In this document: in pieces, positions 1 through 16,621 of the stretch
Layout of the letters: each line of letters opens with the position of its first letter
How positions within the stretch are numbered: the stretch's first letter is position 1
Assembly: GCA_016197155.1 (NCBI GenBank)
Contig: JACPWF010000025.1
Coordinates: 28,276 to 92,275, forward strand
Origin: Candidatus Omnitrophota bacterium
GTDB lineage: Bacteria > Omnitrophota > Gorgyraeia > 2-02-FULL-51-18
Direction of reading: 5' to 3'
DNA length: 64,000 nt
Translations under genes and position numbers: made by a program
Notes under the pieces: generated by a model
The model's database searches: none
The model's input: only the letters and a program-made list of their open reading frames with translations
What the model was told of the DNA's origin: nothing

Positions 1-678
1 TGCTTTGCGCGCCACAAAATAGATCCCCAAAGGTCCTGGGAACGGCTTGAGCCGCATCTTTTTCAGGGCGCCAGGCTGATAGGCATAAATCTTCCAAGGA
101 TCGGTGTCATGCCGCTCCGTGTACTGAAAAATGTATGAGGTCTCAATTTTGTAACCGTTGGCGGCATAGAATTCGTAAAAAAAAGTGGGTGAATACATGT
201 AAAAGCCATGGTCCACGTGGTTAGTGGAAGGCGCACCATGAATGACGCGCCCTCCGACTTTCAGCAGGCGATGGATGTTCCTCAACGCCGCGGCCTGGTC
301 AAACACGTGTTCCAGAGTCCCGCCGTCCAAGATCACGTCATAAAAGCCATAAAGCCCCTCGGGAACCGGCAGGTTGAGATCAAGCGTATGCGTGGATTGC
401 TCATAATCCGAAACATCCAAACTGTGCACCGTCTTAAAACCCAGCGCCGAAAAAAAAGTCTGGTCGTCCATGCATCCCCTCTCCGCCAGTTCCGGATGAT
501 GGGACTTATCGACAAAGGCGAGCCCGGCCAGTTTCACCCCATGCCAAGCGGCCCATCGGATCAATTCATCCATGTTGAAGTAAACCAGTTGTCTTCCCAG
601 CTCGAGAATGGAGCCGTTGAATGGACTCTTTTGGGCTTCCGATAAAAGCAGGCGGGCCATCCCCCGCGCGATACCCAT
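1..678 (-). CDS. SAM-dependent methyltransferase (class I fold), 3' part; gene continues past window start
   Basis: Minus-strand frame read by hand from ATG ~678: MGIARGMARLLLSEAQKSPFNGSILELG...LDLNLPVPEGLYGFYDVILDGGTLEHVFD...LLKVGGRVIHGAPS; motif-I-like ILELG and motif-II-like DVILDGG...LEHV. Not in ORF track because it runs off the window edge. The forward ORF 208-645 is its antisense. Confidence 0.5.
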   Translation of the reverse strand, partial: MGIARGMARLLLSEAQKSPFNGSILELGRQLVYFNMDELIRWAAWHGVKLAGLAFVDKSHHPELAERGCMDDQTFFSALGFKTVHSLDVSDYEQSTHTLDLNLPVPEGLYGFYDVILDGGTLEHVFDQAAALRNIHRLLKVGGRVIHGAPSTNHVDHGFYMYSPTFFYEFYAANGYKIETSYIFQYTERHDTDPWKIYAYQPGALKKMRLKPFPGPLGIYFVARKA

Positions 679-2562
679 TCAGGATATGATCGCCGGTGAA
701 GACTGCCGAACCTGGTCCGCATTGATCGCATCCTTTCGAAAATGGCCTTGTATCTTCCAATATTCGAAAAATGGGCCGCGACTATCCAAAAGTTCGTCGA
801 GGGTCCCTTGCTCCACCACTTGTCCGTTTTCAATCACAACGATCTTATCCGCGTCGGCAATAGTCGAAAGCCGGTGAGCAATTACAATCGCTGTTCGACC
901 TTTGATGCTTTCCGCGATCGCGCTTTGAACTCGTTTCTCCGTCTTTGCATCCATCGCGCTTGTAGCCTCGTCCAATATCAGGATATCCGCGCCCTTTAAG
1001 AGCGCCCGGGCAATCATGACCCGCTGTCTTTCACCACCCGACAGCAAAACCCCCCTGTCTCCCATGAGTGACTCTAGTCCCAACGGCAAGCGCTCAACCA
1101 CCTTCCCAAGCTCGGCCATCCTGATGACTCTTTGAATTTCGTCCTCTGAGATCCCTCTGTCCAGGCCATAACAAAGATTATTCCGAAGCGTGTCATTGAA
1201 AAACATCGGTTCTTGGGCCACAAAGGCGACACGGTCCATGAGAGAACGCCGGCTGAAATCCCGTACGTCTTTGCCGTCCAAAAAAATACTGCCGGGCGGG
1301 CATTCATAAAAACGCATGAGAAGATGAGCAACCGTCGTCTTCCCCGCTCCGGTCGATCCAACAATCGCTGTCGTCTGCCCCTTTTTCAAAGACAGGCTCA
1401 GGTTGCGCAATACGGGAACGTCCGGCAAATAGCCGAAGTTGAGATTCCTGATTTCGATGCTCTCACGCAGAGATTGAAAGGTTTTTGTGCCTTCTGAAAT
1501 GTAGTATTTTTTCTCTTCATTCATGATATAGCGAATATAAACTAGTGTGCCCTCCGCACGGGCCACGGAAATGTTAAATTGTGTGAGAGCCCCGAAAAGC
1601 GGGATGGTTCTCATCGCTACCAAAAAAAAGACAAGATGGGAGGAAACGTTTCGGTGCCCGGAATCCGAAGAAAACTGCATCATGAGAAACGCCACAAATC
1701 CAAGCAAGGCAATTCTGGACAACTCTTGAATGGGCGCAATCAGCAACTCCTTTTTCTTCGCTTCATGATCAAGAAGGATTTGTTTGTCGCTCAATTCCGT
1801 CAGACGGCTCACCTCATCTTTTTCACAAGCATAGGCTTTAACCAGTCCGATAGCTGAAACGACGTTAAACACTCGGAGAGAAAAATCAAGATACGATGTC
1901 TCCTGGGAAAGCGAAGACTCTTTGAGCTGCTGGATCAGCCGCCCAAAGAAAAAATGGTGCACGGGGAAAGTAATCACAAGAAAGAGCGTGAGTTTCCAGG
2001 AAATCCAACACATGAAAAAAAGATAGGCGGCCAGGAGCATCACCTGGCCGAGAAATCGCCGCAGGCTGCCCAGTTGGCCAGTGATGGTTTCGGATCCCCT
2101 GATCATCGTCTTGCTGATGTCACTCACGGCAATACCATCATAAAATTGTTTTCCAAAGGCCAGACACCTGCCAATGATGAGTTTCCGGACGTTGCGGTCC
2201 ACAATTTTGCTTTGTTGATCCATGTTGAGGCTCGAGAAATAAACTAGAAAATTTTTGACAACAAGCGAAATAACGATCGTGGACAAAAGCAGGACAAGAT
2301 AAGAGGCGGGGCTGGAAAATACGCTTGGGAAAAATTTCTGGACGTGTGAAATCAGCCCCAACTTGTCATGGACCGTCGTAAAATTCCCCTCGATAAGTCC
2401 GCGCAGGAATTTGATCAAAAGAGCCATTCCCAACAGATTAAATACGACCGAGAGCGCCGTGCAACCAATGGCTAGAAAGAAATGAATTGGGACTATGCCC
2501 ATGCGGCGGAAGAAATCAACTAGCTCCCGAATTTGAGTCAACGAATTGGATTTACCTTCCAT
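679..2562 (-). CDS. ABC transporter, fused permease/ATP-binding subunit (MsbA-like exporter)
   Basis: 627-aa ORF: N-terminal multi-TM region; Walker A GSTGAGKTT, signature LSGGERQR, Walker B ILILDEAT, H-loop IAHRLST. Confidence 0.85.
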   Translation of the reverse strand: MEGKSNSLTQIRELVDFFRRMGIVPIHFFLAIGCTALSVVFNLLGMALLIKFLRGLIEGNFTTVHDKLGLISHVQKFFPSVFSSPASYLVLLLSTIVISLVVKNFLVYFSSLNMDQQSKIVDRNVRKLIIGRCLAFGKQFYDGIAVSDISKTMIRGSETITGQLGSLRRFLGQVMLLAAYLFFMCWISWKLTLFLVITFPVHHFFFGRLIQQLKESSLSQETSYLDFSLRVFNVVSAIGLVKAYACEKDEVSRLTELSDKQILLDHEAKKKELLIAPIQELSRIALLGFVAFLMMQFSSDSGHRNVSSHLVFFLVAMRTIPLFGALTQFNISVARAEGTLVYIRYIMNEEKKYYISEGTKTFQSLRESIEIRNLNFGYLPDVPVLRNLSLSLKKGQTTAIVGSTGAGKTTVAHLLMRFYECPPGSIFLDGKDVRDFSRRSLMDRVAFVAQEPMFFNDTLRNNLCYGLDRGISEDEIQRVIRMAELGKVVERLPLGLESLMGDRGVLLSGGERQRVMIARALLKGADILILDEATSAMDAKTEKRVQSAIAESIKGRTAIVIAHRLSTIADADKIVVIENGQVVEQGTLDELLDSRGPFFEYWKIQGHFRKDAINADQVRQSSPAIIS

Positions 2563-3259
2563 TCTTTTTTACTCCCACGCCAACCGCCATTAAATAATGG
2601 GCCATCGGATAAAAACCGGTGTGCACAATTTCATCGTTCATCGAGAAAACGAACACATTGTGAAAACACCGTGTCAAAAGTTTTCTCAAACCCTCCGAAT
2701 TCTTCAGATTCACGTGCGCGATCCGACTGCGGGGGCTGGCATACTTGCGAGCTTCCTTGTTGGGAGTGCCCAGAATCAAAATTCCTTGAGGTGCGAGCGA
2801 TTTACAAATATTTCTCACAAAATGCCTTTCCAAAACCCTCGGAATATGCTCGATCACATCCAATGAATACGCCGCATCGAATTTTCGACCTGTCACCCGG
2901 TTTTTTGTAATATCAAGCACCGAAAAACGGCATTTTTTGATCCCCTCATGCCACAAACGATCCTGCGCATCGTGGATCACAAACGGCTCAAGATCTACAC
3001 CATGGACAAAACCAACTGTTTGGAGCATTACCGGGATGCCTATGGCATCGCCGCAGCCCACTTCCAGCACGCGCACGCAACCCGCGAGCATCTTGGCACA
3101 AAACTTGTATCGTGCCAGCAGAAACCCCAGATGCTTTGGATCGCTTCGCCAGATGTTACTGCTCCACGGCCCCAGGTGTGCGGCACCTCTTTGCCGATAG
3201 TCGTCAAGCTGACTATCCTGGGCCAGATGCTGTTTCTGTTTCGCGTCGATCCGGGTCAT
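2552..3259 (-). CDS. class I SAM-dependent methyltransferase
   Basis: Motif I VLEVGCGDAIG; ~235 aa. Start assigned to internal Met (MTRIDAK) giving an ATGA start/stop overlap with panB at 3256-3259. Confidence 0.7.
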   Translation of the reverse strand: MTRIDAKQKQHLAQDSQLDDYRQRGAAHLGPWSSNIWRSDPKHLGFLLARYKFCAKMLAGCVRVLEVGCGDAIGIPVMLQTVGFVHGVDLEPFVIHDAQDRLWHEGIKKCRFSVLDITKNRVTGRKFDAAYSLDVIEHIPRVLERHFVRNICKSLAPQGILILGTPNKEARKYASPRSRIAHVNLKNSEGLRKLLTRCFHNVFVFSMNDEIVHTGFYPMAHYLMAVGVGVKKNGR

Positions 3260-4146
3260 TTTGGAGATTCGACGACGTATTTCCACCGGGGATCCGCCAA
3301 CATTCTCTCGAGTTCTTCGTCTTTCAATTCATAAAAATGCTCGCTTGAGGGAAATTTTCCTGTACGCACTTCGGATGCGTACTGTCTCAGCGACTGCTCA
3401 ATCACCCTGCCCACCTCGCAATAGCGCTTGACAAATTTGGACTTGAATTCAAAAAACATGCCTATCAAATCATGCAGAATCACCAGCTGACCGTCCACCT
3501 GATCGCCGGCGCCGATGCCGTAAACCGGGATTTTTAAATTTTTGGCGACATAGCCGGCCGATTCCCGCGGCATCGCCTCGAGCAATAAAAGCCGGCAACC
3601 GGCCTCTTGCAGAGCGATCGCCTGCTCCAATATCCTGTCGGTTTCTTTCTTTGTCTTTCCCTGCACACGGTAGCCGCTTAGCATGGCCCGCGTTTGAGGT
3701 GTCAGACCCAGATGGCTCATCACGACAATGCCGGCGTCGGCAATCGCTTTGACCCGGTCCACCATGGCGCCTTCGACCTTCACCGCATCGCAGCCCCCTT
3801 CCTGCAAAAACCGGCCCGCATTGCGCACGGCAATTTCGTTGGAGACCTGGTAGGACATGAAAGGCATGTCCCCGATCTGCATGGCCTTTTTGTTGGCCCG
3901 CCAAACACCTCGGCAATGGCTGATCATGTCCTCCATCGTGACGGCAATGGTCGTCTTGTAGCCAAGTGTCGTCATCCCTAGCGAATCTCCCACCAGCACG
4001 ATATCCACTCCGGCGCGGTCGGCCAACAACGCCTCCGGATAAGTGTACGCGGTAACGGCCACCACTTTTTCTTTTTCTTCTTTTTTTCTCTCAAGCGTCA
4101 CCAGCGTTGTGCGCGGCCTGTCCATCGGACCGGAATTTTCTAGCAT
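3256..4146 (-). CDS. panB: 3-methyl-2-oxobutanoate hydroxymethyltransferase (ketopantoate hydroxymethyltransferase)
   Basis: Strong similarity to PanB along its length: VTAYTYPEALLADRAGVDIVLVGDSLGMT..., HLGLTPQ, IGAGDQVDGQLVILHD. Confidence 0.8.
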   Translation of the reverse strand: MLENSGPMDRPRTTLVTLERKKEEKEKVVAVTAYTYPEALLADRAGVDIVLVGDSLGMTTLGYKTTIAVTMEDMISHCRGVWRANKKAMQIGDMPFMSYQVSNEIAVRNAGRFLQEGGCDAVKVEGAMVDRVKAIADAGIVVMSHLGLTPQTRAMLSGYRVQGKTKKETDRILEQAIALQEAGCRLLLLEAMPRESAGYVAKNLKIPVYGIGAGDQVDGQLVILHDLIGMFFEFKSKFVKRYCEVGRVIEQSLRQYASEVRTGKFPSSEHFYELKDEELERMLADPRWKYVVESPK

Positions 4147-5954
4147 AGCGTTTTACTCCCTTTTAGTCTTTCTTTCTCCACTAATGTTGAGAACGCCTTT
4201 TCAATCTCCTTTAATTCCTCGGATCCGAGCTTGGGGTCCAAATCTTCGAGCGAGCCTCCAAATTTCAGCATCGGGACAATCCTTTGGTTTGGGAATATTT
4301 CCACGTTGCACAAGACGGGCCCCTGGCTTTGAAGGGCCTCACGGATCTGCCGACTCATTTTGGCGTGATCGCAGATATTCACGGTTTTCATGCCAAACGC
4401 CTGGCCGCTTTTCAAAAAATCGGGAAAGGCCAGACCGGTCGGTTCATCCACTCCTTCATACCGGGAATCCAGCCAGGTGTCCAGCGTCTGTTTTTGAATG
4501 CCGTGCCCATGGTTATTGAAAATGAAAACCGTGACAGGCAGGTGATGCCGGACCAGTGTCGCCAGTTCAGCCAGGCACATCATGATCCCGCCGTCACCGA
4601 TGATGCACAGGACGCGGCGATGACCCGCCGCCAGCGCCGCACCGATGCTCGCCGGCAGGGAATACCCCATCGGCGAATGGTTCCAGGCCGAAAAAAGACG
4701 CTGGCCGGGCTTGACGCGCCAGGCCTGCATCGTCCAGCTTAAATTTCCCCCGGCGTCGGTGATCACGATATCGTTTTCGCCGGATTGCTTCGAAAGCTCC
4801 TCCACAAACAGGTAGGCGTCCACACTGTCCGTTTTTTCAGACAGCCCGTCTGGTGCAATTGGAAACCGGCGCCGTAAGAGGCGGATAAAATCCAGCCAAT
4901 GATCGCGTTCCGAAGCCCGCACGGAAAAATCAACGGAAGAACAGTTTTGAAAAAATTCCCGGATACCGCTTTGAATCGGCAGATCCACCTTCACGCCGCA
5001 AGGGGCAAACTTTGCAAATTCTTCGGCGTCGATATCCACCACCGCCTTGCGTGCGTCCGGGGCGAAAAGCTCCTGCCTGCCGCCCGTGATCATTTGAGAG
5101 AGCCGGGTTCCCACCGCCAAAATCAGATCCGCCCTCTGGACCGTGAAGTTGCCCGCGCGCGGTCCGCACACGCCCAGCCCTCCCGCGCTGATCGGGTGGT
5201 CATACGGTATCAAATCGGCCCCACCCCATGTCAATAGGACCGGGATCCCTAATCGGTTGGCAAAATCAATCGCTTCTCTCTCAGCCTTTGCCAAACGGAT
5301 ACCCGCGCCATAAATGAGGACCGGACGCCGGCTTTGCTTCACCAAGGCGCATAATTTCTCCGGCCAATCGAATAACGGGGTTAGGCCCTGGGTCGAAGGC
5401 CCCGGCGCCTCAAACCGCTCCAATTTTTCAGGATCCACATCCACCCGCTGAACATCATCCGGAATGTCCAAAAGCACGGGGCCCGGACGGCCCGAACGCG
5501 CCAGCCAAAGCGCTTTTTCAAGCTCGTAGCGGATCAACGCCGGATCCTCAACCAAAACGGCATATTTGGTGACCGGTTTGAAAATGGAAACCACGTCCGT
5601 CTCCTGGAAACCTTTTTGCCTCAAACACCCGTTTTTCTTCAGACGGAAACGGGCCACCTGGCCGGTGAGAAAAAGTGAAGGGATAGAATCAAAATAAGCG
5701 CAACAGACGCCCGTGAGAAGGTTGGTGGCGCCCGGGCCGCTGGTCGTGATGGCCACGCCGAGGTTACCCGTGATTCGTGAATAGGCGTCCGCGGCCATCG
5801 CGGCGGCCTGTTCGTGTTGCGGACAAATGTACCGGAGGGAAGGGTGCCTGGCCACCGAATCCACCAAATGAATCGCGGCCCCGCCGGAAATCAAGAACAC
5901 GTGCCTGACTCCCTGACGCGCGATGAAATCGGCAACGTAGTCGGACAGTTTCAT
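4140..5954 (-). CDS. thiamine-diphosphate-dependent enzyme, acetolactate synthase large-subunit family (specific reaction unknown)
   Basis: ALS/IlvB-like N-terminal Pyr domain (GVRHVFLISGGAAIHLVD, TSGPGATNLLTG), SGRPGPVLLDIP, C-terminal TPP motif IIGDGG...N. Start placed at MKLSDYVADF (ATGA overlap with SDR stop at 5951-5954). Confidence 0.8.
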   Translation of the reverse strand: MKLSDYVADFIARQGVRHVFLISGGAAIHLVDSVARHPSLRYICPQHEQAAAMAADAYSRITGNLGVAITTSGPGATNLLTGVCCAYFDSIPSLFLTGQVARFRLKKNGCLRQKGFQETDVVSIFKPVTKYAVLVEDPALIRYELEKALWLARSGRPGPVLLDIPDDVQRVDVDPEKLERFEAPGPSTQGLTPLFDWPEKLCALVKQSRRPVLIYGAGIRLAKAEREAIDFANRLGIPVLLTWGGADLIPYDHPISAGGLGVCGPRAGNFTVQRADLILAVGTRLSQMITGGRQELFAPDARKAVVDIDAEEFAKFAPCGVKVDLPIQSGIREFFQNCSSVDFSVRASERDHWLDFIRLLRRRFPIAPDGLSEKTDSVDAYLFVEELSKQSGENDIVITDAGGNLSWTMQAWRVKPGQRLFSAWNHSPMGYSLPASIGAALAAGHRRVLCIIGDGGIMMCLAELATLVRHHLPVTVFIFNNHGHGIQKQTLDTWLDSRYEGVDEPTGLAFPDFLKSGQAFGMKTVNICDHAKMSRQIREALQSQGPVLCNVEIFPNQRIVPMLKFGGSLEDLDPKLGSEELKEIEKAFSTLVEKERLKGSKTLC

Positions 5955-6739: not shown

Positions 6740-6756
6740 TATTCACCTTTGGACCA

Positions 6757-7731
6757 TCAGGCGTAAACATTTGATACATCCTGGTTTTCCCCGGCAAGCC
6801 ACTGATACTCTTGTTTCCAATGCAAATTCCACCTCGCGTCAGCCTGGCCGGGCGCGGCGGACCTGCTCAAGAAGTGCGCGGCGATATCCATGAGCCGGGG
6901 ATCTTTTTCCTGAGGAGAAAGTCCGCTGAAAACCCGGGAAGCTCCGAGTCTATCCCCCAACCAGGCCAGATTGATCCCATTGCACAAATTCAAAGACTTT
7001 TCGATCGCGTCAAAAAGCCGCTTGGCCGTCGGTGAGGCGTTTCGGACCTGAGACGCGGGGACAAAACGGAAATTAAAACTCAATCGCCTCCGCGACCGAG
7101 GTTTGGTCGCGCCATGAACCGTTTGAGGATCAAACACGAGCGCGTCGCCCTGTTTCAATGCGTACTGAACGATCTCGCTTTTTAGAAGCGGGTCGACTTC
7201 ATGTGCCTTACTTAGATATTCGTTTAGATTGTAGCGGTTTTTCTCCCCTTTCAAGGGAGCCGGGACAACATCCGAGACGTGCGTGGAGAAACCGCAGAGA
7301 CCGCCTGTTGACTCATTGATCTCTTCGAGCGGGACCCATATTGAAAACCCAAAAACACCATAGGCAGTGTCGTAGTGAGGTTCGGTGTATAGGAAAGCCT
7401 TCTCATGTTCTTTGGACAAGAAAACACCTGGCTGACAAAACCTCAGATAAAACAAAGGGCAAAGCATAAAATCCTCCCGGCTTCCATGGAAATCCCTCAG
7501 CTGAGGCGCCAAATAGTCCTTGATCCTCAGCAGGATCGCCGTTGACGCAAAACGAAACGTGACAATCCTCGAAACAACGGATTCTTTCTGGTGAATGCCG
7601 TTAAACTCCTCGCGTGTCCGGTTGCTGAAGTAATCCTTGTAAACGTCCTCCGAGGTCTTGTCCGCCGCATGGCGCAGCTCTTCCACAAAACTCTGCGGAA
7701 ACACACCTTTCAATAATCGCATTTGGCCCAT
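6757..7731 (-). CDS. PhyH-like Fe(II)/2-oxoglutarate-dependent dioxygenase (putative hydroxylase)
   Basis: HxD triad candidate (EPHYDTAYG), distal His (VHGATKP) and RRRLSFNFRF tail resemble the phytanoyl-CoA dioxygenase family. Start set at the internal ATG at 7731, which overlaps the upstream stop (TGATG). Confidence 0.5.
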   Translation of the reverse strand: MGQMRLLKGVFPQSFVEELRHAADKTSEDVYKDYFSNRTREEFNGIHQKESVVSRIVTFRFASTAILLRIKDYLAPQLRDFHGSREDFMLCPLFYLRFCQPGVFLSKEHEKAFLYTEPHYDTAYGVFGFSIWVPLEEINESTGGLCGFSTHVSDVVPAPLKGEKNRYNLNEYLSKAHEVDPLLKSEIVQYALKQGDALVFDPQTVHGATKPRSRRRLSFNFRFVPASQVRNASPTAKRLFDAIEKSLNLCNGINLAWLGDRLGASRVFSGLSPQEKDPRLMDIAAHFLSRSAAPGQADARWNLHWKQEYQWLAGENQDVSNVYA

Positions 7732-8969
7732 CACCACACCCCCGCGGGTAAAAAAACGGATTTGGGTCCGAGACCAAGCAGACGCCGCATGATAGGGCGA
7801 GCGCTGTCTAACGCCGTGATCAGGATATTGGCCGACCCCCATAAAATGCCCGGCCAGGGTTTGCGTATTTTCACCGCCAACGCCGGATAACACAAACCAT
7901 CCCGCCCGGGATCATCGTCCAGAATACATTCCAAAAAACCCAAGTCGCTCTTTAGATGATAGGCCAATGTCGGAACCATTTGTGCGCCCCCGTAGCCGTA
8001 CAGCGGCCCGCCCACATTTTGAACAAAATCCACGGTTTGCTCCATTCTTTGTTTGAACAAATCATGACGATGTCTGACCTGAGCGGCACTGGGAACCGGG
8101 GAGTTCGGCGGGAATACCCCTCCCGAACCGCTTTTTCCCTTCTCGAAAGCGATCAGCAAAGTGCCGTTCCAATATTGATGATTAAAAGTGTGGGCGACGT
8201 AACGCCCCCCTACGGCCTCAATCAAGCGGCAAAAGGATGCGACGCTGAAATATTGTAAATGCTGATGAAAGACCTGATCGAACCGCGAAGCGGCCAAAAG
8301 GGTCTCAAACGCCGGCACCTCGATCACAAAGAGCGCCCGGTCTGAGGCATATTTCACCCATGCCTCCAGAACCTTCCGCGGATCGGCCATGTGTTCAAAC
8401 GTGTGCGCGGAAATCACAAGATCCGGCCGATCACCCATTTCGTTCTTCAAATCCACCTCGTCGGCAAATTTCCCCAAGACGCGGATCTTCCCTTCTTTTA
8501 AAGGCCTGTCTTTCCAGATGGGATCGATACCGACCAGCCGCTTCGCTTTTGTTTGAATTTTTTTCAAAAGATACAAATCATTGCAGCCGATTTCGGCAAC
8601 CGTATGGAACGTTCTTCTTGCGAGAAATCCCTTTAGAAATGAATAAAAGAAATCGTTGCCCTGCCTGGCGATCGCGCTACGCGAGCTTCGATGGGAGTAC
8701 GTCTGGACATACAAATATTCGGGATCAATCACGTTTGAGAGTTGCGCATGCCCGCAATCTTCGCAGAGCGCTAGCATCTGGTCAAAAACCGGATAACATT
8801 CGGGACGGGGCCGGTCCACGTAAATGCCAGTCAGAGGGAATTGGGGAAGATCCAATACGGGTTCCAGATTCGCGCCGTGGCATACCGAACAACCGTTGTT
8901 ACGTAAAAACCGGATACGCGAAGCCGCTGGCGCCGTGCCTAAAGGGGGATCAGTTTGAACAGTTATCAT
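7731..8969 (-). CDS. C-methyltransferase of the TylCIII/EryBIII-like family (zinc-ribbon + SAM MTase + C-terminal C-MT domain)
   Basis: N-terminal CxxC...CxxC (CSVCHG...CEDCGHAQLSNVIDPEYLY), motif I VAEIGCNDLYLL, 412 aa, typical of NDP-hexose 3-C-methyltransferases. Confidence 0.6.
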   Translation of the reverse strand: MITVQTDPPLGTAPAASRIRFLRNNGCSVCHGANLEPVLDLPQFPLTGIYVDRPRPECYPVFDQMLALCEDCGHAQLSNVIDPEYLYVQTYSHRSSRSAIARQGNDFFYSFLKGFLARRTFHTVAEIGCNDLYLLKKIQTKAKRLVGIDPIWKDRPLKEGKIRVLGKFADEVDLKNEMGDRPDLVISAHTFEHMADPRKVLEAWVKYASDRALFVIEVPAFETLLAASRFDQVFHQHLQYFSVASFCRLIEAVGGRYVAHTFNHQYWNGTLLIAFEKGKSGSGGVFPPNSPVPSAAQVRHRHDLFKQRMEQTVDFVQNVGGPLYGYGGAQMVPTLAYHLKSDLGFLECILDDDPGRDGLCYPALAVKIRKPWPGILWGSANILITALDSARPIMRRLLGLGPKSVFLPAGVW

Positions 8970-9714
8970 AGATCGTTACCGAGGCCTTTTTTTGCAACAG
9001 ATGGTTGTATTCGGCCTGCCAGAGTTCGCCAAATTTCACATGCTTCCATTTATCAAACCACGGGCCGCCGCGCGTGAAATGAATGGCCTTGGGAATTTCG
9101 TCCGGAACGGCCCTGCTCCAACCCTCAAGCCAATTCCAAGTCTCCGGAAGCGCGCCGATCTCGGAATCTTTGAGCCATTGGAAACGGTGTAAAAAAGCGC
9201 CTGTTTCACGATTCACGGCCTCCGGGGTCAAAACACCGTTGGATGGGTAGGCACAATTCCAAAGCACGAGGCTGGACCAATTTTTCCGCGGATAAACCGT
9301 TTGAAGCGCGCCGTCCATTTTCGTCCGCTCCGGCGGACGATGGTCATGCTGGACACACATCACGGCGCACCGCGGATCGGCCATGGCGAAAAGCTCGGCG
9401 ACATCGGCCGTGAACAAAAAATCGCAGTCCACAAACAATGCCCAACCCCGGTAGTCGGCCAAAAAAGGCGTCAAAAAGCGGGTATACGTGAACTCCGTCG
9501 AGGCCAGAGGATCCTTGGACCGCGCGTATAGTCCCCCATGCCGAAGTTCTTCCTGTTTGAGAGGGGTGACATCAAGCGGCCGGCTCGAGTACCTGCGAAG
9601 AGACGCCAGACAAACGTCGTAGGCCACTTCCTCGCGGCTGTCCCAACCGATAAAAATTCTCAGTGCCTTCTTCATCAATCCGTCCATGATATAACAGGAT
9701 CGATAAACCTGCAA
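8950..9714 (-). CDS. GT-A fold glycosyltransferase, GT8-like
   Basis: Rossmann-like N-terminus (MKKALRIFIGWD), DxD candidate FVDCDFLF, C-terminal IHFTRGGPW resembling the GT8 HxxGxxKPW motif. True start may be the internal Met at ~9675. Confidence 0.5.
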   Translation of the reverse strand: MQVYRSCYIMDGLMKKALRIFIGWDSREEVAYDVCLASLRRYSSRPLDVTPLKQEELRHGGLYARSKDPLASTEFTYTRFLTPFLADYRGWALFVDCDFLFTADVAELFAMADPRCAVMCVQHDHRPPERTKMDGALQTVYPRKNWSSLVLWNCAYPSNGVLTPEAVNRETGAFLHRFQWLKDSEIGALPETWNWLEGWSRAVPDEIPKAIHFTRGGPWFDKWKHVKFGELWQAEYNHLLQKKASVTIYDNCSN

Positions 9715-10779
9715 TCAGCTTCTCAAAACCTTGAGTATCCTTTGCGCGGCGTCTCCCGAAATTACCGTTCGACTAACCATTTGTCTTGAATTTTCAAAAA
9801 GCGGCTGATTGTCAGGGGCCTTTTTAGCCAGATGAACGAAATGAAACCAATCCTCCGTCTCCCGGATCAAAAAAAGCGGCTCGTAGCGGGATGTGTCCAC
9901 GTCGCCGGCAACCACCGCCACCGGCACTCCGGCCCGGGCCGCGTCCAAAGCGACCGTTGAAGGAGTCGTGATGATCGCGTCCGACCCGCGAAGAAAAGCG
10001 GAAAGTCCGTAACGCCCCCAAACCGGCGCATGCGGATCGGCTAAAATCAGGTTCTTTAGACCGGAAAATACTTCACGGCCGTGCCGCGTAAACCACCTTT
10101 GGTCCGGATGAGGCCGCACAAAAAAGGTGGTGTCGGGAAGGCGCCTGGCGGTTTCTTTCAAATCCGCCATGAAACGCCTCCGGTACTCGTCGGAATAGCG
10201 ATGCCAATGCAAATTCTCAAAAACTGTGACGGTGAAAGGCCGCCCCTCGACTTTACCCAGGGGTATTTCGGAAAGCCTGAGTTCACGCGGATACCCCACC
10301 GGAATACATCTTCCCTTAACTTCGGACGGGATTTGGGGATCTAGGGAGGACAACTCCCCCCAAACAAAAATCTTTTGCGAAGCAAATCGCACCGTTCCCG
10401 GCGGATCTTTCTCATCAAAATAAGTCAGGCCGACCTGCTCAAAGCCATGCTGGACCGTGAAGGTTTTAATTCCAAGACGATTGGCCCGTCGCGTCAACGC
10501 GTAAGCCGCCGCGTGCGGCCGCAGACTGGATTCCGAAGCAGTAACCAGCGCGTCAAAGCCTCGCAGGCCCGGTCCTAGCCCCAAAATGATTTTCCATCTG
10601 GGAATCACCTGAAAACGAATGGGTAGGGACTGGAAATCGGAAGCTGTGGCGGCAAACCGGCGAAACAGCCTGTCCGTGAAATAGACGGACGCTTCAAACC
10701 CCCTGCCCACACCGCCTTTCACAATGGGCAACAAAAGTTCCGTGTCCTGCACATAATCCAGAAAAAAAAGAATCTTCAC
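9715..10779 (-). CDS. putative GT-B fold glycosyltransferase / capsule-type sugar transferase
   Basis: C-terminal TPSTVALDAARAGVPV resembles GT-B nucleotide-sugar binding helix. GTG start at 10779 forms a GTGA overlap with the upstream stop; the ORF-track N-terminal 57 aa overlap the upstream gene and are discounted. Confidence 0.4.
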   Translation of the reverse strand: MKILFFLDYVQDTELLLPIVKGGVGRGFEASVYFTDRLFRRFAATASDFQSLPIRFQVIPRWKIILGLGPGLRGFDALVTASESSLRPHAAAYALTRRANRLGIKTFTVQHGFEQVGLTYFDEKDPPGTVRFASQKIFVWGELSSLDPQIPSEVKGRCIPVGYPRELRLSEIPLGKVEGRPFTVTVFENLHWHRYSDEYRRRFMADLKETARRLPDTTFFVRPHPDQRWFTRHGREVFSGLKNLILADPHAPVWGRYGLSAFLRGSDAIITTPSTVALDAARAGVPVAVVAGDVDTSRYEPLFLIRETEDWFHFVHLAKKAPDNQPLFENSRQMVSRTVISGDAAQRILKVLRS

Positions 10780-12083
10780 GCGTCCCTCACGAACGGCGCG
10801 CGCGTCAAAAAAAAGTAGGTCAGGACGGGAAAACTCTGGATCATCAACCGGTCCAACGACACGGCGAGCTGAGTCGGCAAATTCAAAGCTGTCAGACAAT
10901 AGACACCCGCGTATCCGGCGTTCAGAAAAAAAACGGTCAGGGGTATCCAAATTTTATCTCTACCAAATATCTCCCGCCGGAAGAAAACCGCCAGCACACC
11001 GAAAACGGGCCAGGCATACGCCCAGGAATTTTCTTTGCGGATTTCCGCGGCAAAAAAGGAAAAAACCGTTCCCAGCCTTGACAAAATCTCTTCGGCCGTC
11101 AACCGACTGATCGCTTCCGGCCGCAGCATGTGATTCGGCGAAAACGTGCTCAGTTTAAAAAATACTGTGAACGCCAAAAATAAAAGTCCCCCCTTCGCCA
11201 TCGCGAAGAGAAACCGCCTCTCCGTAAACAGAGCCAGCGAGAGGCAAAAGGCCGCAAAAAACAAAAGCCCTTCGTTTTTCACAAAACCGGACATCCCTGC
11301 AAACGCGCCCGATACCATCGCCCAACGCGCGTCCTCGCCACAAAGTGCCATGTCCATCGAAACGATGGCAGCCGTAAAAAAATAGGCGACCGGAATATCC
11401 GCGTACTGCGACCCGCCCATTCCAATGAAATGCGGAATCGAAATGAGAAAGAGACCGGATACCCACGCCGAACGCCTTCCATAACGGGCGGCGGCCGCCA
11501 TTACCAAACCGACCAGGCACAAGGTCATCATGAAAGCCAACAGAAAAGCGGCCGCGGCCGTCTCCCGTCCCGCAAAAAGCCATGCCCAAACCAAGGCCAG
11601 CGGATAAAAGAGCGGATAGTCCGGATGAGAAAAACGTAAACCCGGCGCGAAGATCGCCCGCCAGTCCGCGGCATGATAAATGAAACGTGCCTTTATTTTC
11701 CAAATGGCCCAGACGTCGAGGCCCGTCCCGAACGGCGATTTCAGCATGACCGCGAGCAACAACAAAGCCGCCGCCGAAAGAATGGCGAAAAAAACCACGC
11801 CTTCTTTCATTGCCGCAGGTTCCCGTTTTGTATTGCGATATGCCCCCCACAGCATGACCAGCAAAAAAAGATGCGCGGCAATCGCGAGTTCTCTGGAAAT
11901 TCGGTGAAAGAAATACAGATCGAAATATAAAAGGAAGCTGGATATAAAAAGTCCCGCTCCCGGAGCGAGAAAAAGAAGGAGAGATCCCGGACAACGGGAA
12001 TTTTTCAGAAAAACCCGAAGGGCACAGAAACCGATCGCGCCTGAAACCAGATACGACATCATCGCTAAAAAACCGGCTGTCAT
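10776..12083 (-). CDS. polytopic inner-membrane protein, GT-C-like glycosyltransferase or O-antigen polymerase/ligase-like
   Basis: 435 aa, ~10-12 hydrophobic helices throughout, aromatic-rich loops. No soluble domain recognised. Confidence 0.4.
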   Translation of the reverse strand: MTAGFLAMMSYLVSGAIGFCALRVFLKNSRCPGSLLLFLAPGAGLFISSFLLYFDLYFFHRISRELAIAAHLFLLVMLWGAYRNTKREPAAMKEGVVFFAILSAAALLLLAVMLKSPFGTGLDVWAIWKIKARFIYHAADWRAIFAPGLRFSHPDYPLFYPLALVWAWLFAGRETAAAAFLLAFMMTLCLVGLVMAAAARYGRRSAWVSGLFLISIPHFIGMGGSQYADIPVAYFFTAAIVSMDMALCGEDARWAMVSGAFAGMSGFVKNEGLLFFAAFCLSLALFTERRFLFAMAKGGLLFLAFTVFFKLSTFSPNHMLRPEAISRLTAEEILSRLGTVFSFFAAEIRKENSWAYAWPVFGVLAVFFRREIFGRDKIWIPLTVFFLNAGYAGVYCLTALNLPTQLAVSLDRLMIQSFPVLTYFFLTRAPFVRDA

Positions 12084-12505
12084 GTGAAGCGCCTGTCTTT
12101 CCGTGCGATCGCCAAACCACCTGACTGAAAAAGGACCTCAAGGGAATTGTCCCTGCAATGGGACTCGAGTGATTCCGGCGTTTCGAAATCGAGAACGAAA
12201 TGATCGGCATGCGCGTTATTGTCTGAGATGAGGTGAGGAGCCATCGCGTATTGAAAGTCGTAATACCGCTCCGCCGCTTTCCCGGGAATCCCGGAGACGT
12301 AGGAAAAACGCGAAAAATCAAAGGGTGACGAAGAAACGAAGGAAAGAATTTTGTCTTTGAGAATCCGGTAACGCGAATCCACGGCCTCATGCCGCGAAAC
12401 CAGCGCCTGAACAGATCGGCAGGCAATCTTGATCTGCCTTATGAAACCAAAGGCTATCGACAAAATCAGGACAAAGCAGAGAAGGAATTTACGAAAACGA
12501 GGCAC
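12080..12505 (-). CDS. hypothetical membrane-anchored protein
   Basis: 141-aa ORF with N-terminal hydrophobic helix (FLLCFVLILSIAFGFI). Alternative (GTG) start; 4-nt overlap with downstream gene start. Confidence 0.4.
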   Translation of the reverse strand: MPRFRKFLLCFVLILSIAFGFIRQIKIACRSVQALVSRHEAVDSRYRILKDKILSFVSSSPFDFSRFSYVSGIPGKAAERYYDFQYAMAPHLISDNNAHADHFVLDFETPESLESHCRDNSLEVLFQSGGLAIARKDRRFT

Positions 12506-12515
12506 TTCGTTACCT

Positions 12516-12553
12516 AAAAAACAAAACCCGGTTCCCTTAGCGGGGAACCGGGT
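12516..12553 (-). terminator. rho-independent terminator downstream of the OM beta-barrel gene
   Basis: Perfect 11-bp stem cccggttcccc/ggggaaccggg with 4-5 nt loop. On the minus strand it is followed by a U-run (forward aaaaaacaaaa at 12516-12526). Confidence 0.45.
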
Positions 12554-12571
12554 CGGAGTTTGAGAATTTAA

Positions 12572-13462
12572 TTACCAGCGAATGCGCCCGTTCAGCGAGA
12601 CTGCCGTCTCCGCGATAAAGCGACCTTCAACATTCACGGCCAGACGATCACCAAAAGTGATGAGTTGAAGTCCTGTGGCCACCGCGACCGAATCTTGACC
12701 ATTCCGATGACCGGTCTGAACCGTTTCCCTCGGGTTGGTGGCATCTGCCGGCAATGAGCTGGTACCGGATATATTCAGGTCCAGATCATTGTATTGGACA
12801 CCCACGTAAGGAGTAATGCTAAACCCATTGATTCCGATAAAGCCGAGGGGATTGTCAATGCGTTGGGCGATTCCGATGCCCGTCTGCCATTCATTGATTT
12901 CCACTTCCAGATCCTCAATGACCGCATCCACCACCCCAATCGACGCGGTATCAACGGCCAAATGGGTCCATCGATAGCCACCGCTACCATAGATGTTCGC
13001 TTTTGGTAGGCCCGGAAAAATTCCAGAAAGCAGGTCCACCTCAATGAGATCGACTTTCCCGCCGACACCCACAGCAAACTGCGAATCAGTTTTAAGAACC
13101 ACTTTCGTAGTGGTGTTGTTGCTGATCGGCGTATTTCCAAGTTTCAAATTGGCTGTCCCAAGGAAGACATCGAGGTGAACCTTGTCGAGAGGGTCCCAGT
13201 AAACGTTGCCACCCCACCAGGTGGCCTCGCTCACGTCGGTGGCATCATCGAGGTTTCTGTCAATCACATAATCAGCTGACGTCCCAAACCCAACCGCCCA
13301 CGGACCCCACATGCCCATCCACGGCTGATCCTTGGAAGTGAGAAGCGGCGTCATCTGATAAGTGTTCAGGTCCGCATCGGACGGCATCGCGAAAGCGCGG
13401 TCGCCGGAAAATGAGACCACAGCCAAAAGGAACGCAACCACAACGAACGTTTTTATTTTCAT
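12572..13462 (-). CDS. outer-membrane beta-barrel protein (porin-like)
   Basis: Signal peptide MKIKTFVVVAFLLAVVSFSGDRAFA, alternating amphipathic strands, C-terminal ...NGRIRW (aromatic beta-signal). Confidence 0.6.
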   Translation of the reverse strand: MKIKTFVVVAFLLAVVSFSGDRAFAMPSDADLNTYQMTPLLTSKDQPWMGMWGPWAVGFGTSADYVIDRNLDDATDVSEATWWGGNVYWDPLDKVHLDVFLGTANLKLGNTPISNNTTTKVVLKTDSQFAVGVGGKVDLIEVDLLSGIFPGLPKANIYGSGGYRWTHLAVDTASIGVVDAVIEDLEVEINEWQTGIGIAQRIDNPLGFIGINGFSITPYVGVQYNDLDLNISGTSSLPADATNPRETVQTGHRNGQDSVAVATGLQLITFGDRLAVNVEGRFIAETAVSLNGRIRW

Positions 13463-13516
13463 CCAATCGTCTCCTTTAATAGTAAGAGTCCCACAAGCAT
13501 GAATCTTTAGTTATGG

Positions 13517-13545
13517 ATTATATAAAATAACTCATTTTTAATCAA
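13517..13545 (-). promoter_or_regulatory. sigma70-type promoter for the OM beta-barrel gene
   Basis: On the minus strand: TTGATT, 17-nt spacer, TATAAT. AAGGAG SD 6 nt before the ATG at 13462. AT-rich UP-like region upstream. Confidence 0.5.
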
Positions 13546-13554
13546 GATTAATTA

Positions 13555-14421: not shown

Positions 14422-14473
14422 CTGGATTTAATCTAACGGGTCACGGCGATAAAATCAATATTAAAAACAAAAA

Positions 14474-14696: not shown

Positions 14697-14740
14697 TAAA
14701 ATTTTAAAAAATGTTTATAGATTTTAAATTTATCCGATCC

Positions 14741-15059: not shown

Positions 15060-15095
15060 TCTTATCCCTTTCCCTTAAAGCGGTTTTTCCGCCAA

Positions 15096-16610: not shown

Positions 16611-16621
16611 GTGAACTTGTT

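What the first reader, a model, noticed from the sequence alone, without database searches (positions are those of the whole stretch)
1..13462. Translationally coupled 13-gene operon mixing three glycosyltransferase folds, three methyltransferases, PanB, an ALS-like TPP enzyme, an SDR, a 2OG dioxygenase, an ABC exporter and an OM beta-barrel
Seen in sequence: every gene from the window start to 12505 is on the minus strand, and adjacent genes abut or overlap. ATGA/GTGA/TGATG start-stop overlaps lie at 3256-3259, 5951-5954, 7731-7733, 10776-10779 and 12080-12083, and the operon continues past coordinate 1.

The gene content is atypical for an O-antigen or capsule locus. No NDP-sugar dehydratase, epimerase or nucleotidyltransferase is in view, yet there is a TylCIII-type C-methyltransferase. 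Two enzymes normally confined to primary metabolism (PanB, acetolactate-synthase-like) sit in the middle of the glycosyltransferase genes.

Inference: this encodes synthesis, decoration and export (MsbA-like transporter, beta-barrel) of a heavily modified glycoconjugate or glycolipid carrying branched/methylated/hydroxylated substituents. I do not recognise this gene combination as a described pathway.
Basis: partly seen in the sequence, partly recalled or inferred. Interest (0 to 1): 0.8.

Follow-up and report, generated by a model that had tools for sequence, protein, structure and literature searches.

The report
Branched-sugar glycan operon with dedicated PanB
An uncultivated Omnitrophota bacterium carries a tightly packed 12-gene operon that most likely builds and exports a surface glycan containing a carbon-branched, methylated sugar; its vitamin-pathway look-alikes (PanB, acetolactate-synthase-like enzyme) belong to a sugar-branching gene pair found in hundreds of environmental genomes and not described in the papers I could search.

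Summary
Twelve minus-strand genes (1-12505) overlap, abut or lie at most 39 nt apart, and the run continues past base 1. The 13th gene, the putative outer-membrane barrel (12572-13462), has its own promoter-like site. The strongest terminator-like hairpin of the region separates it from the rest.

The source is a Candidatus Omnitrophota MAG. Lipid A genes and a better MsbA candidate lie elsewhere in the window.

- **TPP enzyme:** it is not acetolactate synthase. It falls below every AHAS cut-off, and its best solved relative is JanthE, a YerE-like ThDP carboligase.
- **PanB:** it keeps the canonical catalytic residues but belongs to a separate subfamily (62-89% identical across phyla, at most 47% to ordinary PanBs). 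In 72/80 metagenome loci and 79/80 IMG/VR loci this subfamily sits next to a JanthE-like enzyme, among NDP-sugar genes and never among ilv or pan genes.
- **Recurrence:** the C-MT-SDR-TPP-PanB order recurs in three other loci. SDR, TPP, MT, GT-B-like, ABC and GT8-like genes recur together in another MAG.

Best reading: a YerE/YerF-type acyl-branched-sugar pathway in which PanB makes the 4-hydroxy-2-oxo-acid donor. That step is inferred. No NDP-sugar core genes are visible, and the product is unknown. I rate it a new variant of a known kind.

The parts
1..678 (-). Class I SAM methyltransferase (MT0). Only the N-terminal 226 aa are in view; the gene runs off the window start.
   Evidence: The ATG at 678 directly follows the ABC stop codon. 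Weak Methyltransf_11/12/23 hits. Homologues of 47-50% identity follow a Zn-ADH in L153 and L154.
679..2562 (-). ABC exporter with fused transmembrane and ATPase domains; HepA/PglK/MsbA-type, probably the flippase or exporter of the glycan or its lipid-linked precursor.
   Evidence: ABC_membrane plus ABC_tran. HepA family 439 bits and MsbA 363 bits, both below their cut-offs. A 48% homologue lies next to the GT8-like gene in L153.
2552..3259 (-). Class I SAM methyltransferase (MT1, 235 aa), probably an O-methyltransferase.
   Evidence: Methyltransf_23/31/25/11 hits. ATGA overlap with the PanB stop. It is the most frequent neighbour of the TPP enzyme, in about 23 of 56 genome loci at 40-56% identity.
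3256..4146 (-). PanB-subfamily hydroxymethyltransferase (296 aa). Proposed maker of the 4-hydroxy-2-oxo-acid donor.
   Evidence: PF02548 331 bits; TIGR00222 290.7 bits against a cut-off of 207.55. Catalytic residues align with E. coli 1M3U. Conserved C-terminal tail. 100% identical to MBI3252524.1 of Candidatus Omnitrophica. A TPP enzyme is adjacent in 72/80 metagenome and 79/80 IMG/VR loci.
4140..5954 (-). JanthE/YerE-like ThDP carboligase (604 aa). Proposed sugar-branching enzyme.
   Evidence: Three TPP domains. Below all AHAS equivalog cut-offs (395.5 against 538.35). Best solved relative is 8rph, JanthE, at E 1.9e-100 and 340 bits, against about 272 bits for AHAS (JanthE identity from PMC12188165). 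GDG...NN motif present.
5951..6739 (-). Classical SDR (262 aa). Proposed YerF-like reductase of the branch carbonyl.
   Evidence: adh_short_C2 at 1.4e-41. ATGA overlap with the TPP start. Co-located with TPP and C-MT in 9 genome loci and in L071 and L074.
6757..7731 (-). PhyH-type Fe(II)/2-oxoglutarate oxygenase (324 aa).
   Evidence: PF05721 31.5 bits. Weak hit to TIGR04324, 'sporadic carbohydrate cluster 2OG-Fe(II) oxygenase'. HYD...H...R motifs are visible in the sequence. Homologues of 36-38% identity in L041 and L071.
7731..8969 (-). TylC3/TcaB9-type NDP-sugar C-methyltransferase (412 aa).
   Evidence: PF08421 zinc domain 47.3 bits plus Methyltransf_23. Solved 3-C-methyltransferases 4rv9 (E 2.7e-20), TcaB9 and 5t6b.
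8950..9675 (-). GT8-like retaining glycosyltransferase, GT-A fold (241 aa).
   Evidence: No Pfam hit. AlphaFold pLDDT 87. Foldseek hits GlyE, WbbM, GT8 3tzt and LgtC at E down to 8e-10. Homologues of 61-77% identity are named LPS glycosyltransferase and a few carry PF01501.
9715..10779 (-). DUF6716 / 'surface carbohydrate biosynthesis' protein (354 aa), probably a GT-B-like transferase.
   Evidence: Only sub-threshold hits. A 43% homologue lies beside the ABC gene in L153.
10776..12083 (-). GT-C membrane glycosyltransferase (PMT_2/ArnT-like, 435 aa). It would use a polyprenyl-phosphate-linked donor on the periplasmic side.
   Evidence: PF13231 27.9 bits against a cut-off of 26.1. Polytopic hydrophobic sequence.
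12080..12505 (-). 141-aa protein with one N-terminal hydrophobic helix and unknown function. First gene of the coupled run.
   Evidence: ATGA overlap with the GT-C start. No family hit.
12525..12554 (-). Intrinsic-terminator-like hairpin between the barrel gene and the operon.
   Evidence: 12-bp stem with 8 GC pairs, followed by TTGTTTTTT; the strongest such site in 1-15200.
12572..13462 (-). Putative outer-membrane beta-barrel protein (296 aa). A separate unit, and its membership of the system is unproven.
   Evidence: Signal peptide, C-terminal W and alternating hydrophobic pattern. Promoter-like site at 13545-13517. No family hit, no usable structure model, and no homologue in related loci.

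Best explanation
Window 1-12505 (minus strand, continuing past base 1) is one translationally coupled operon of a Candidatus Omnitrophota bacterium. It makes, decorates and exports a cell-envelope glycoconjugate containing a C-branched sugar.

**Proposed core chemistry**
1. The PanB-subfamily enzyme hydroxymethylates a 2-oxo acid using methylene-tetrahydrofolate. With 2-oxoisovalerate the product is ketopantoate; a smaller 2-oxo acid would give another 4-hydroxy-2-oxo acid.
2. The JanthE/YerE-like ThDP enzyme decarboxylates that donor and adds the hydroxyacyl carbanion to the carbonyl of an NDP-keto-sugar. This creates a tertiary-alcohol branch point.
3. The SDR, overlapping the ThDP gene by 4 nt, reduces the side-chain ketone as YerF and ErwF do.
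4. The TylC3-type C-methyltransferase, the PhyH-type oxygenase and two class I methyltransferases add a C-methyl, a hydroxyl and O-methyl groups.
5. GT8-like, DUF6716 and GT-C transferases assemble the glycan on a lipid carrier or acceptor, and the ABC exporter moves it across the inner membrane.

**Shown:** gene order and coupling, family assignments, and the co-conservation statistics.

**Inferred:** the identity of donor and acceptor, the order of steps 1 and 2, the final product and its cellular destination.
For: **Coupling**
- Nine of eleven junctions overlap or abut; the other two have gaps of 17 and 39 nt.

**TPP enzyme**
- It is below every AHAS equivalog cut-off.
- Its best solved relative is JanthE, 340 bits against about 272 for AHAS.
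- JanthE is a YerE-like ketone-accepting carboligase that tolerates bulky and 4-hydroxy 2-oxo-acid donors. Its physiological substrates are unknown (PMC12188165, PMC12247030).

**Published precedent**
- ErwI aldolase makes a gamma-hydroxy-2-oxo acid, the ErwE ThDP enzyme couples it to a CDP-4-keto-sugar, and ErwF reduces the branch (PMC9306805).
- E. coli PanB acts as a 2-oxo-acid aldolase, giving 3-substituted 4-hydroxy-2-oxo acids (PMC10127515).

**PanB subfamily**
- It is 62-89% identical across Omnitrophota, Nitrospirales, Marinimicrobia and Oligoflexia. Canonical PanBs in 645 plasmid records are at most 47% identical.
- W288 and K289 in the C-terminal tail are invariant in 31 members.
- A TPP ORF is present in 72/80 metagenome loci. 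In 63 of 74 cases it is on the same strand within 150 nt. In IMG/VR loci it is adjacent in 79/80.
- A representative of the partner TPP enzymes in the marine loci (L121) also best-hits JanthE, 344 against 215 bits.
- The neighbours are NDP-sugar epimerases or dehydratases, DegT aminotransferases, RmlC-like epimerases, kinase/nucleotidyltransferase genes and glycosyltransferases. None are ilvN, ilvC or panC.

**Module recurrence**
- C-MT-SDR-TPP-PanB occurs in the same order in L031, L071 and L074.
- TPP-PanB-C-MT-SDR-MT occurs in Nitrospirales next to GmhA- and HldE-like heptose genes.
- L153 shares SDR, TPP, MT0, GT-B-like, ABC and GT8-like genes.

**Envelope context**
- lpxA, lpxB, lpxC-fabZ, lpxD, lpxI, bamA and an MsbA candidate are in the same window, so the organism has an outer membrane with lipid A.
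Against: - No nucleotidyltransferase, 4,6-dehydratase or other NDP-sugar core gene was found in the 64-kb window (all large ORFs annotated; no tblastn hit to representative NDP-sugar enzymes). L153 shows none in the Pfam table of its called genes either. The keto-sugar acceptor is therefore assumed.
- PanB passes the housekeeping equivalog cut-off and keeps all catalytic residues, so it could also be the cell's only PanB.
- Seen from the TPP side, PanB is accessory. Only 3 lineages among 56 loci of the 45-67% identity clade carry it, and most have an E1 alpha/beta pair and a Zn-ADH instead.
- The order of the PanB and TPP steps cannot be told from co-occurrence.
- The second solved YerE-like chain (5ahk; that it is PpYerE is my recollection, not checked) scores no better than plant AHAS (274 against 272 bits).
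- The SDR is a generic FabG-like enzyme.
- No biochemical or glycan-structure data exist for any member.
Confidence: 0.5

Rival explanations
1. Same operon and same kind of product, but PanB acts after the ThDP enzyme. The carboligase adds an acetyl or acyl branch from pyruvate or another simple 2-oxo acid. PanB then hydroxymethylates the enolisable carbon next to the new ketone on the NDP-sugar, or on another keto-sugar position.
For: - The co-occurrence asymmetry fits this as well as the main model: PanB is almost always with TPP, while TPP is often without PanB.
- In the window and in 38 of 74 metagenome cases the TPP gene precedes PanB.
- The conserved C-terminal tail could reshape the active-site lid for a larger substrate.
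Against: - PanB-type catalysis chelates the 2-oxo-carboxylate on Mg2+. The subfamily keeps all canonical residues and scores above the PanB equivalog cut-off, with no added nucleotide-binding segment.
- Gene order is reversed (PanB before TPP) in 25 of 74 cases.
- In the only characterised analogous system the aldolase acts first, and ErwE rejects pyruvate (PMC9306805).
Confidence: 0.2
2. The PanB/TPP/SDR trio makes a small non-sugar substituent, such as a pantoate-like or other branched hydroxy acid or polyol. This is then attached to the glycan as an ester, amide or phosphodiester rather than forming a C-C branch on the sugar ring.
For: - PanB plus a ketoreductase is the route to pantoate.
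- No NDP-sugar core genes are found in the window, and none appear in the Pfam table of L153's called genes.
- Related loci often carry a kinase plus cytidylyltransferase-like pair and a Zn-ADH, as polyol-phosphate pathways do.
- The DUF6716 / surface-carbohydrate protein could be a phosphotransferase-type enzyme.
Against: - No acyltransferase, ligase or ATP-grasp enzyme is in the operon to attach an acid.
- This route gives the ThDP enzyme no obvious role, since no IlvC- or IlvD-like genes are present.
- The TylC3-type C-methyltransferase family acts on NDP-keto-sugars.
- NDP-sugar epimerases or dehydratases and DegT dominate the neighbourhoods of the pair.
Confidence: 0.13
3. PanB and the ALS-like enzyme are ordinary pantothenate and branched-chain amino-acid enzymes that merely lie inside a glycan operon.
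For: - PanB exceeds the TIGR00222 and NF001452 cut-offs with intact catalytic residues.
- PanB is more conserved than its neighbours (85% to the Nitrospirales copy, against 64% for TPP and 57% for SDR), as housekeeping enzymes tend to be.
Against: - The TPP enzyme is below every AHAS cut-off and nearest to JanthE.
- No ilvN, ilvC, ilvD, panC, panD or panE was found among the annotated ORFs of the window or among the recurrent neighbour families annotated in the 160 PanB-subfamily loci.
- PanB-TPP adjacency inside sugar clusters holds across phyla (72/80 and 79/80 loci).
- There is a clear identity gap to canonical PanBs (at most 47%).
- PanB is translationally coupled to a methyltransferase and to the TPP gene.
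Confidence: 0.05

Closest known systems
Erwiniose pathway of Pectobacterium atrosepticum (ErwI/ErwJ aldolase-dehydrogenase, ErwE ThDP enzyme, ErwF reductase; PMC9306805)
   Same: - An aldol-type enzyme that makes a gamma-hydroxy-2-oxo acid is encoded next to a YerE-like ThDP carboligase and an NAD(P)H reductase.
- The product is an acyl-branched sugar of a cell-surface polysaccharide.
   Different: - The donor-forming enzyme here is a PanB-type methylene-THF hydroxymethyltransferase (TIM-barrel, ICL/PEP-mutase superfamily), not a BphI-type pyruvate aldolase.
- No CDP-3,6-dideoxy-4-keto-hexose genes are in view.
- A C-methyltransferase, a 2OG oxygenase and O-methyltransferases are added.
- The host is an uncultivated Omnitrophota bacterium.
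YerE/YerF of Yersinia pseudotuberculosis (yersiniose A)
   Same: A three-domain ALS-like ThDP enzyme plus a reductase, in a surface-glycan gene cluster.
   Different: - YerE uses pyruvate and needs no donor-forming enzyme.
- Sequence closeness to YerE itself could not be tested, because no YerE sequence was at hand.
JanthE (PDB 8rph), YerE-like ThDP lyase of Janthinobacterium sp. HH01
   Same: - It is the closest solved relative of the window enzyme and of a representative (L121) of the marine PanB-partner enzymes (340 and 344 bits).
- It accepts bulky and 4-hydroxy 2-oxo-acid donors and ketone acceptors.
   Different: - JanthE has a CDG ThDP motif. The window enzyme and the 66 PanB-partner enzymes in which the motif was found have the canonical GDG.
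- JanthE's physiological role and gene context are not reported in the papers read.
Canonical PanB (ketopantoate hydroxymethyltransferase; E. coli 1M3U, M. tuberculosis 1OY0)
   Same: - Same fold family.
- The D-S, D, K-x-E, H and E active-site residues all align.
- It scores above the curated equivalog cut-off.
   Different: - Only about 45% identical.
- It has a conserved roughly 25-residue C-terminal tail.
- It is encoded with a ThDP carboligase and sugar genes instead of panC and panD.
E1 alpha/beta-type (alpha-KADH2) sugar-branching enzymes of aldgamycin, avilamycin and kibdelomycin pathways (PMC12247030)
   Same: Related loci of the same TPP clade carry an E1_dh plus Transket_pyr pair beside the ALS-like enzyme (26-32 of 56 loci). 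This points to multiply branched sugars.
   Different: No such pair is visible in the window. Those systems belong to actinomycete antibiotics, not envelope glycans.

Membership tests
YerE-like ThDP carboligases (acyl-branched sugar pathways) | Three-domain decarboxylase-family ThDP enzyme that is closer to characterised YerE-like enzymes than to AHAS | tested here: met
   JanthE (8rph) scores 340 bits and E 1.9e-100, against about 272 bits for AHAS. The protein is below all AHAS equivalog cut-offs. Caveat: 5ahk, which I recall to be PpYerE, scores no better than AHAS.
YerE-like ThDP carboligases (acyl-branched sugar pathways) | Adjacent NAD(P)H-dependent reductase (YerF/ErwF role) | tested here: met
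   The SDR at 5951-6739 overlaps the TPP start by 4 nt. The pair is co-conserved in at least 11 loci.
YerE-like ThDP carboligases (acyl-branched sugar pathways) | Genes for the NDP-keto-sugar acceptor in the same cluster | tested here: not met
   None was found in the 64-kb window. They are present in orthologous loci: L001-L004, L071, 32/56 genome loci and 59/80 metagenome loci. The operon continues beyond base 1, which could not be retrieved.
YerE-like ThDP carboligases (acyl-branched sugar pathways) | Carboligation onto a ketone acceptor to give a tertiary alcohol | not testable with these tools
   This needs an enzyme assay.
PanB / ketopantoate hydroxymethyltransferase (TIGR00222, PF02548) | Score above the curated cut-off and catalytic residues present | tested here: met
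   290.7 bits against a cut-off of 207.55, and 331 bits on PF02548. The residues aligned to E. coli D45/S46, D84, K112/E114, H136 and E181 are conserved (the residue roles are from my knowledge of 1M3U).
PanB / ketopantoate hydroxymethyltransferase (TIGR00222, PF02548) | Pantothenate-pathway gene context (panC, panD, panE) | tested here: not met
   No pan genes were found among the annotated ORFs of the window or among the recurrent neighbour families annotated in the 160 subfamily loci. The neighbours are a ThDP carboligase and sugar genes.
Biosynthetic acetolactate synthase large subunit (IlvB/IlvI/IlvG) | Score above the equivalog cut-off; small regulatory subunit and ilvC nearby | tested here: not met
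   395.5 bits against 538.35 for TIGR00118, and far below every NF00xxxx AHAS cut-off. No ilvN or ilvC was found in the window.
NDP-hexose C-methyltransferases (TylC3/TcaB9 type) | N-terminal four-Cys zinc domain plus SAM methyltransferase domain, with similarity to solved members | tested here: met
   PF08421 47.3 bits (cut-off 31.3) and Methyltransf_23. 4rv9 at E 2.7e-20, plus TcaB9 and 5t6b. The C-terminal domain family was not detected, and regiochemistry cannot be tested.
MsbA (lipid A flippase) | Score above the MsbA equivalog cut-off; lipid A gene context | tested here: not met
   The cluster ABC scores 363.5 bits against a cut-off of 602, and its best family is HepA. The ABC at 20281-22098 scores 522.5 bits and adjoins lpxB.
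GT8 (GT-A fold retaining glycosyltransferases) | GT-A fold with DxD motif | tested here: met
   AlphaFold pLDDT 87. Foldseek hits GlyE, WbbM, 3tzt and LgtC with probability 1.00. D83-C84-D85 is invariant in 25 homologues. Pfam PF01501 hits only some homologues.
GT-C (PMT_2/ArnT-like) | Polytopic membrane protein matching the PMT_2 profile | tested here: met
   PF13231 scores 27.9 bits against a cut-off of 26.1, a marginal pass.
Outer-membrane beta-barrel | Signal peptide, amphipathic beta strands, C-terminal aromatic beta-signal, barrel fold | tested here: inconclusive
   Sequence features fit. There is no family hit, and the AlphaFold single-sequence model was unusable (pLDDT 32).

The most novel reading that the evidence does not exclude
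A distinct PanB subfamily has been recruited from vitamin B5 synthesis into glycan synthesis. There it supplies ketopantoate-type (hydroxymethylated 2-oxo-acid) donors to JanthE-like ThDP carboligases. The result would be a so far unobserved class of sugars carrying hydroxy-(dimethyl)propanoyl or dihydroxyalkyl C-branches.

The pair is widespread in uncultivated marine and groundwater bacteria and is present on more than 140 contigs filed as viral. If the reading is right, it would also identify the missing physiological donor type of the JanthE enzyme group.
Probability: 0.4. Interest if true: 0.72.

Novelty: new variant of a known kind. Interest (0 to 1): 0.62.

Why it matters
- **New role for PanB.** PanB is treated as a pure pantothenate-pathway marker. 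Automatic annotation and metabolic reconstructions therefore miscall both genes, as pantothenate and valine capacity, in many uncultivated lineages.
- **A testable proposal.** The pairing suggests how long, hydroxylated C-branches on bacterial surface sugars get their donor. It also suggests what JanthE-like enzymes, already used as biocatalysts for tertiary alcohols, do in nature.
- **Surface chemistry.** It points to unknown surface sugars in Omnitrophota, Nitrospirales, Marinimicrobia and other abundant environmental bacteria.

Tried and rejected
- **Extending past base 1 failed.** The window ABC protein and the NCBI PanB (P0121) are not in the contig index. An exact 45-mer from bases 82-126 of the window found nothing in JGI metagenomes. 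Logan holds only 4-5 kb fragments that lie inside the window (L151, L152). The MAG is not among the GTDB representatives.
- **Housekeeping PanB/ALS reading rejected.** See the fourth rival explanation.
- **Cluster ABC as MsbA rejected.** A better candidate lies at 20281-22098.
- **Barrel gene as part of the coupled operon rejected.** A terminator, its own promoter-like site and the lack of co-conservation argue against it.
- **Barrel structure not obtained.** The single-sequence prediction failed.
- **Direct PDB sequence searches were uninformative.** The GT8-like protein gave nothing, the oxygenase one weak hit (CurA, E 0.074), and the GT-B-like protein one weak hit. A profile search of the GT8-like family gave only WbbM at E 0.14; the fold search settled it.
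- **Rfam found only tRNAs**.
- **Literature searches found nothing specific.** Searches for PanB plus YerE, O-antigen or branched sugar returned only a general review. The library lacks most subscription journals, so prior description cannot be excluded.

Full report
**1. What is in the sequence**

Every credible gene from base 1 to 19466 is on the minus strand. From 12505 down to base 1 there are twelve genes:
- a 141-aa protein with one hydrophobic helix (12080-12505)
- a PMT_2-type GT-C (10776-12083)
- a DUF6716 / 'surface carbohydrate' protein (9715-10779)
- a 241-aa protein without a Pfam hit (8950-9675)
- a TylC3/TcaB9-type C-methyltransferase (7731-8969)
- a PhyH-type 2OG oxygenase (6757-7731)
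- a classical SDR (5951-6739)
- a three-domain ThDP enzyme (4140-5954)
- PanB (3256-4146)
- a class I methyltransferase (2552-3259)
- an ABC exporter (679-2562)
- a second class I methyltransferase that runs off base 1

There are four more overlapping or abutting junctions. The only gaps are 17 and 39 nt. Gene calls made independently on two Logan contigs of the same organism agree with mine.

**2. Correction to the observation**

The 13th gene (12572-13462) is not coupled to the others. It is followed by a 66-nt spacer holding the strongest terminator-like hairpin in 1-15200. It is preceded by the best sigma-70-like site in that stretch.

The hairpin's T run ends about 10 nt before the ribosome-binding region of the 141-aa gene. 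So the operon is transcribed either by read-through or from a promoter inside the barrel gene. This cannot be decided here.

The barrel assignment rests on a signal peptide, a C-terminal W and an excess of alternating hydrophobic patterns. There was no family hit, and the single-sequence model was unusable.

**3. Organism and setting**

PanB is 100% identical to MBI3252524.1 of a Candidatus Omnitrophica/Omnitrophota MAG, on a 116-kb contig. The GT8-like protein is likewise 100% identical to a protein from that contig.

The rest of the window is housekeeping:
- upstream: serS, frr, pyrH, tsf and rpsB
- downstream: a lipid A block (lpxB, lpxI, lpxA, lpxC-fabZ, lpxD), bamA, glmU, pur genes and glyA

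An ABC protein at 20281-22098 next to lpxB scores 522 bits on the MsbA model. The cluster ABC scores 363 bits on MsbA, and its best family is HepA-type polysaccharide exporters. No NDP-sugar dehydratase, epimerase or nucleotidyltransferase other than GlmU was found in the 64 kb.

**4. The two 'primary metabolism' enzymes**

*ThDP enzyme.* It falls below every acetolactate-synthase cut-off (395 against 538 bits). Its best solved relative is 8rph at 340 bits, against about 272 for AHAS. 8rph is JanthE, a YerE-like enzyme that couples 2-oxo-acid donors, including bulky and 4-hydroxy ones, to ketones. Its physiological substrates are unknown.

*PanB.* It passes the PanB equivalog cut-off and keeps the catalytic residues of E. 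coli PanB. It nevertheless belongs to a separate subfamily:
- The best 120 database relatives are 65-100% identical and come from different phyla.
- Thirty-one members share an invariant C-terminal tail.
- All 645 plasmid-borne and 13 phage-record PanBs are below 60% identity, the best at 47%.

**5.

*Starting from the ThDP enzyme* (67 genome loci, 56 of them at 45% identity or more), the recurrent neighbours are:
- an SDR (36 loci)
- NDP-sugar epimerase/dehydratase (32 loci)
- E1 beta and E1 alpha of a second ThDP system (32 and 26 loci)
- methyltransferases (32 and 24 loci)
- Zn-ADH (25 loci)
- GT2 (24 loci)
- a kinase/nucleotidyltransferase fusion (17 loci)

The window-type SDR plus C-MT occur in 9 of these loci. 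PanB occurs in only three lineages: a Logan contig, Nitrospirales NPIRA01 (listed as Ca. Nitrospira salsa) and Neomarinimicrobiota.

*Starting from PanB* (80 best of at least 562 JGI metagenome loci):
- A ThDP enzyme ORF is present in 72 loci.
- It lies on the same strand within 150 nt in 63 of 74 cases.
- The exceptions are mostly short contigs.
- A representative of these partner enzymes (L121) is also JanthE-like.
- The neighbours are NDP-sugar epimerases (59 loci), DegT aminotransferases (44), B12-radical-SAM enzymes (18), RmlC-like epimerases, and kinase, nucleotidyltransferase and glycosyltransferase genes. None are ilv or pan genes.

*Recurrence of the window's own module:*
- C-MT-SDR-TPP-PanB occurs in the same order in L031, L071 and L074. 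L071 also has the PhyH homologue.
- L002 has TPP-PanB-C-MT-SDR-MT next to GmhA- and HldE-like genes.
- A different MAG (L153) has SDR, TPP, MT0, the GT-B-like protein, the ABC exporter and the GT8-like transferase within 20 kb.

So the transferases and exporter are also linked to the module, though much less widely.

**6. Mechanism**

Steitz et al. (PMC9306805) showed for erwiniose that three steps occur in order. An aldolase encoded in the cluster makes a gamma-hydroxy-2-oxo acid. The YerE-like enzyme ErwE couples it to a keto-sugar analogue and rejects pyruvate. A neighbouring reductase finishes the branch.

E. coli PanB is used preparatively as just such a 2-oxo-acid aldolase, giving 3-substituted 4-hydroxy-2-oxo acids (PMC10127515).

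The simplest reading of the PanB-TPP-SDR triplet follows: PanB makes the donor, the JanthE-like enzyme attaches it to an NDP-keto-sugar, and the SDR reduces the side-chain ketone. The C-MT, oxygenase and O-methyltransferases decorate the sugar. The GT-A, GT-B-like and GT-C transferases and the ABC exporter build and move the glycan.

If the donor is ketopantoate itself, two things are explained. PanB would stay canonical in sequence. Many clusters could do without their own copy, because the housekeeping enzyme would serve. This part is inference.

The rivals are:
- PanB acts after the carboligase.
- The trio makes a non-sugar substituent.
- The genes are plain housekeeping; the co-conservation data argue strongly against this.

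**7. Other checks**

The 241-aa protein is a GT8-like GT-A fold.

**8. Comparison with what is known, and novelty**

ThDP-dependent acyl branching of surface sugars is established (yersiniose, erwiniose, caryophyllose). [quoted passage not shown]

I found no paper that links PanB to such clusters. The searchable library is incomplete, so this is not proof of absence.

I therefore rate the finding a new variant of a known kind. The operon is a member of the YerE-type branched-sugar systems by analogy. One defining feature is unmet in the visible sequence (acceptor-sugar genes), and one component appears new (a dedicated PanB subfamily).

**9. Limits**

- The sequence beyond base 1 could not be obtained.
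- Donor, acceptor and product are unknown.
- All functional statements beyond family assignment and gene linkage are inferences.

Noticed in passing
L155-L234 (IMG/VR contigs): The PanB subfamily occurs on at least 145 stretches of contigs filed as viral in IMG/VR (62-70% identity, contigs up to 186 kb, GC 26-43%). A JanthE-like TPP gene is adjacent in 79 of the 80 fetched, with the same sugar-gene context (DegT in 67/80). No deposited phage genome has a subfamily member. Whether these are true viruses or misfiled host glycan islands is unresolved.
   Followed up: partly
window 20281-33200: A lipid A and outer-membrane block lies here: an MsbA candidate (20281-22098), a GnnA-like UDP-GlcNAc 3-dehydrogenase (22310-23242, which suggests GlcN3N-type lipid A), lpxB, glnA, an OmpR-type regulator, lpxI, lpxA, a fused lpxC-fabZ gene (28017-29309), lpxD and bamA.
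   Followed up: partly
window 60529-63987 (-): A 1152-aa ORF whose only recognisable part is a fructose-1,6-bisphosphatase-like domain at about residues 100-355. The remaining roughly 800 residues have no family hit.
   Followed up: no
window 13555-14421 (-) and 14474-14829: A response-regulator/GGDEF diguanylate cyclase lies directly upstream of the barrel gene. It is preceded by two tRNA-Ser genes and serS. A c-di-GMP link to the envelope genes is possible but was not examined.
   Followed up: no
L002-L004, L071 and 26-32 of 56 genome loci: Relatives of the TPP enzyme usually sit beside a second ThDP system (an E1 alpha/beta pair). Zn-ADH, B12-radical-SAM and SPASM enzymes and GmhA- and HldE-like heptose genes are also frequent. 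This large, sporadically distributed 'super-cluster' (Chlamydiota, Planctomycetales, Omnitrophota, CPR bacteria, Woesearchaeota) probably makes a multiply branched higher sugar. I could not match it to a described pathway.
   Followed up: partly
L036 13479-15002 and the 17-locus family it represents: In the representative scanned (L036), the kinase/nucleotidyltransferase fusion has the cytidylyltransferase-like domain at the N-terminus and the PfkB kinase at the C-terminus. As I recall, E. coli HldE has the reverse order.
   Followed up: no
window 42622-43707 (-): A 361-aa ORF between an ispE-like kinase gene and ftsH has no Pfam hit.
   Followed up: no
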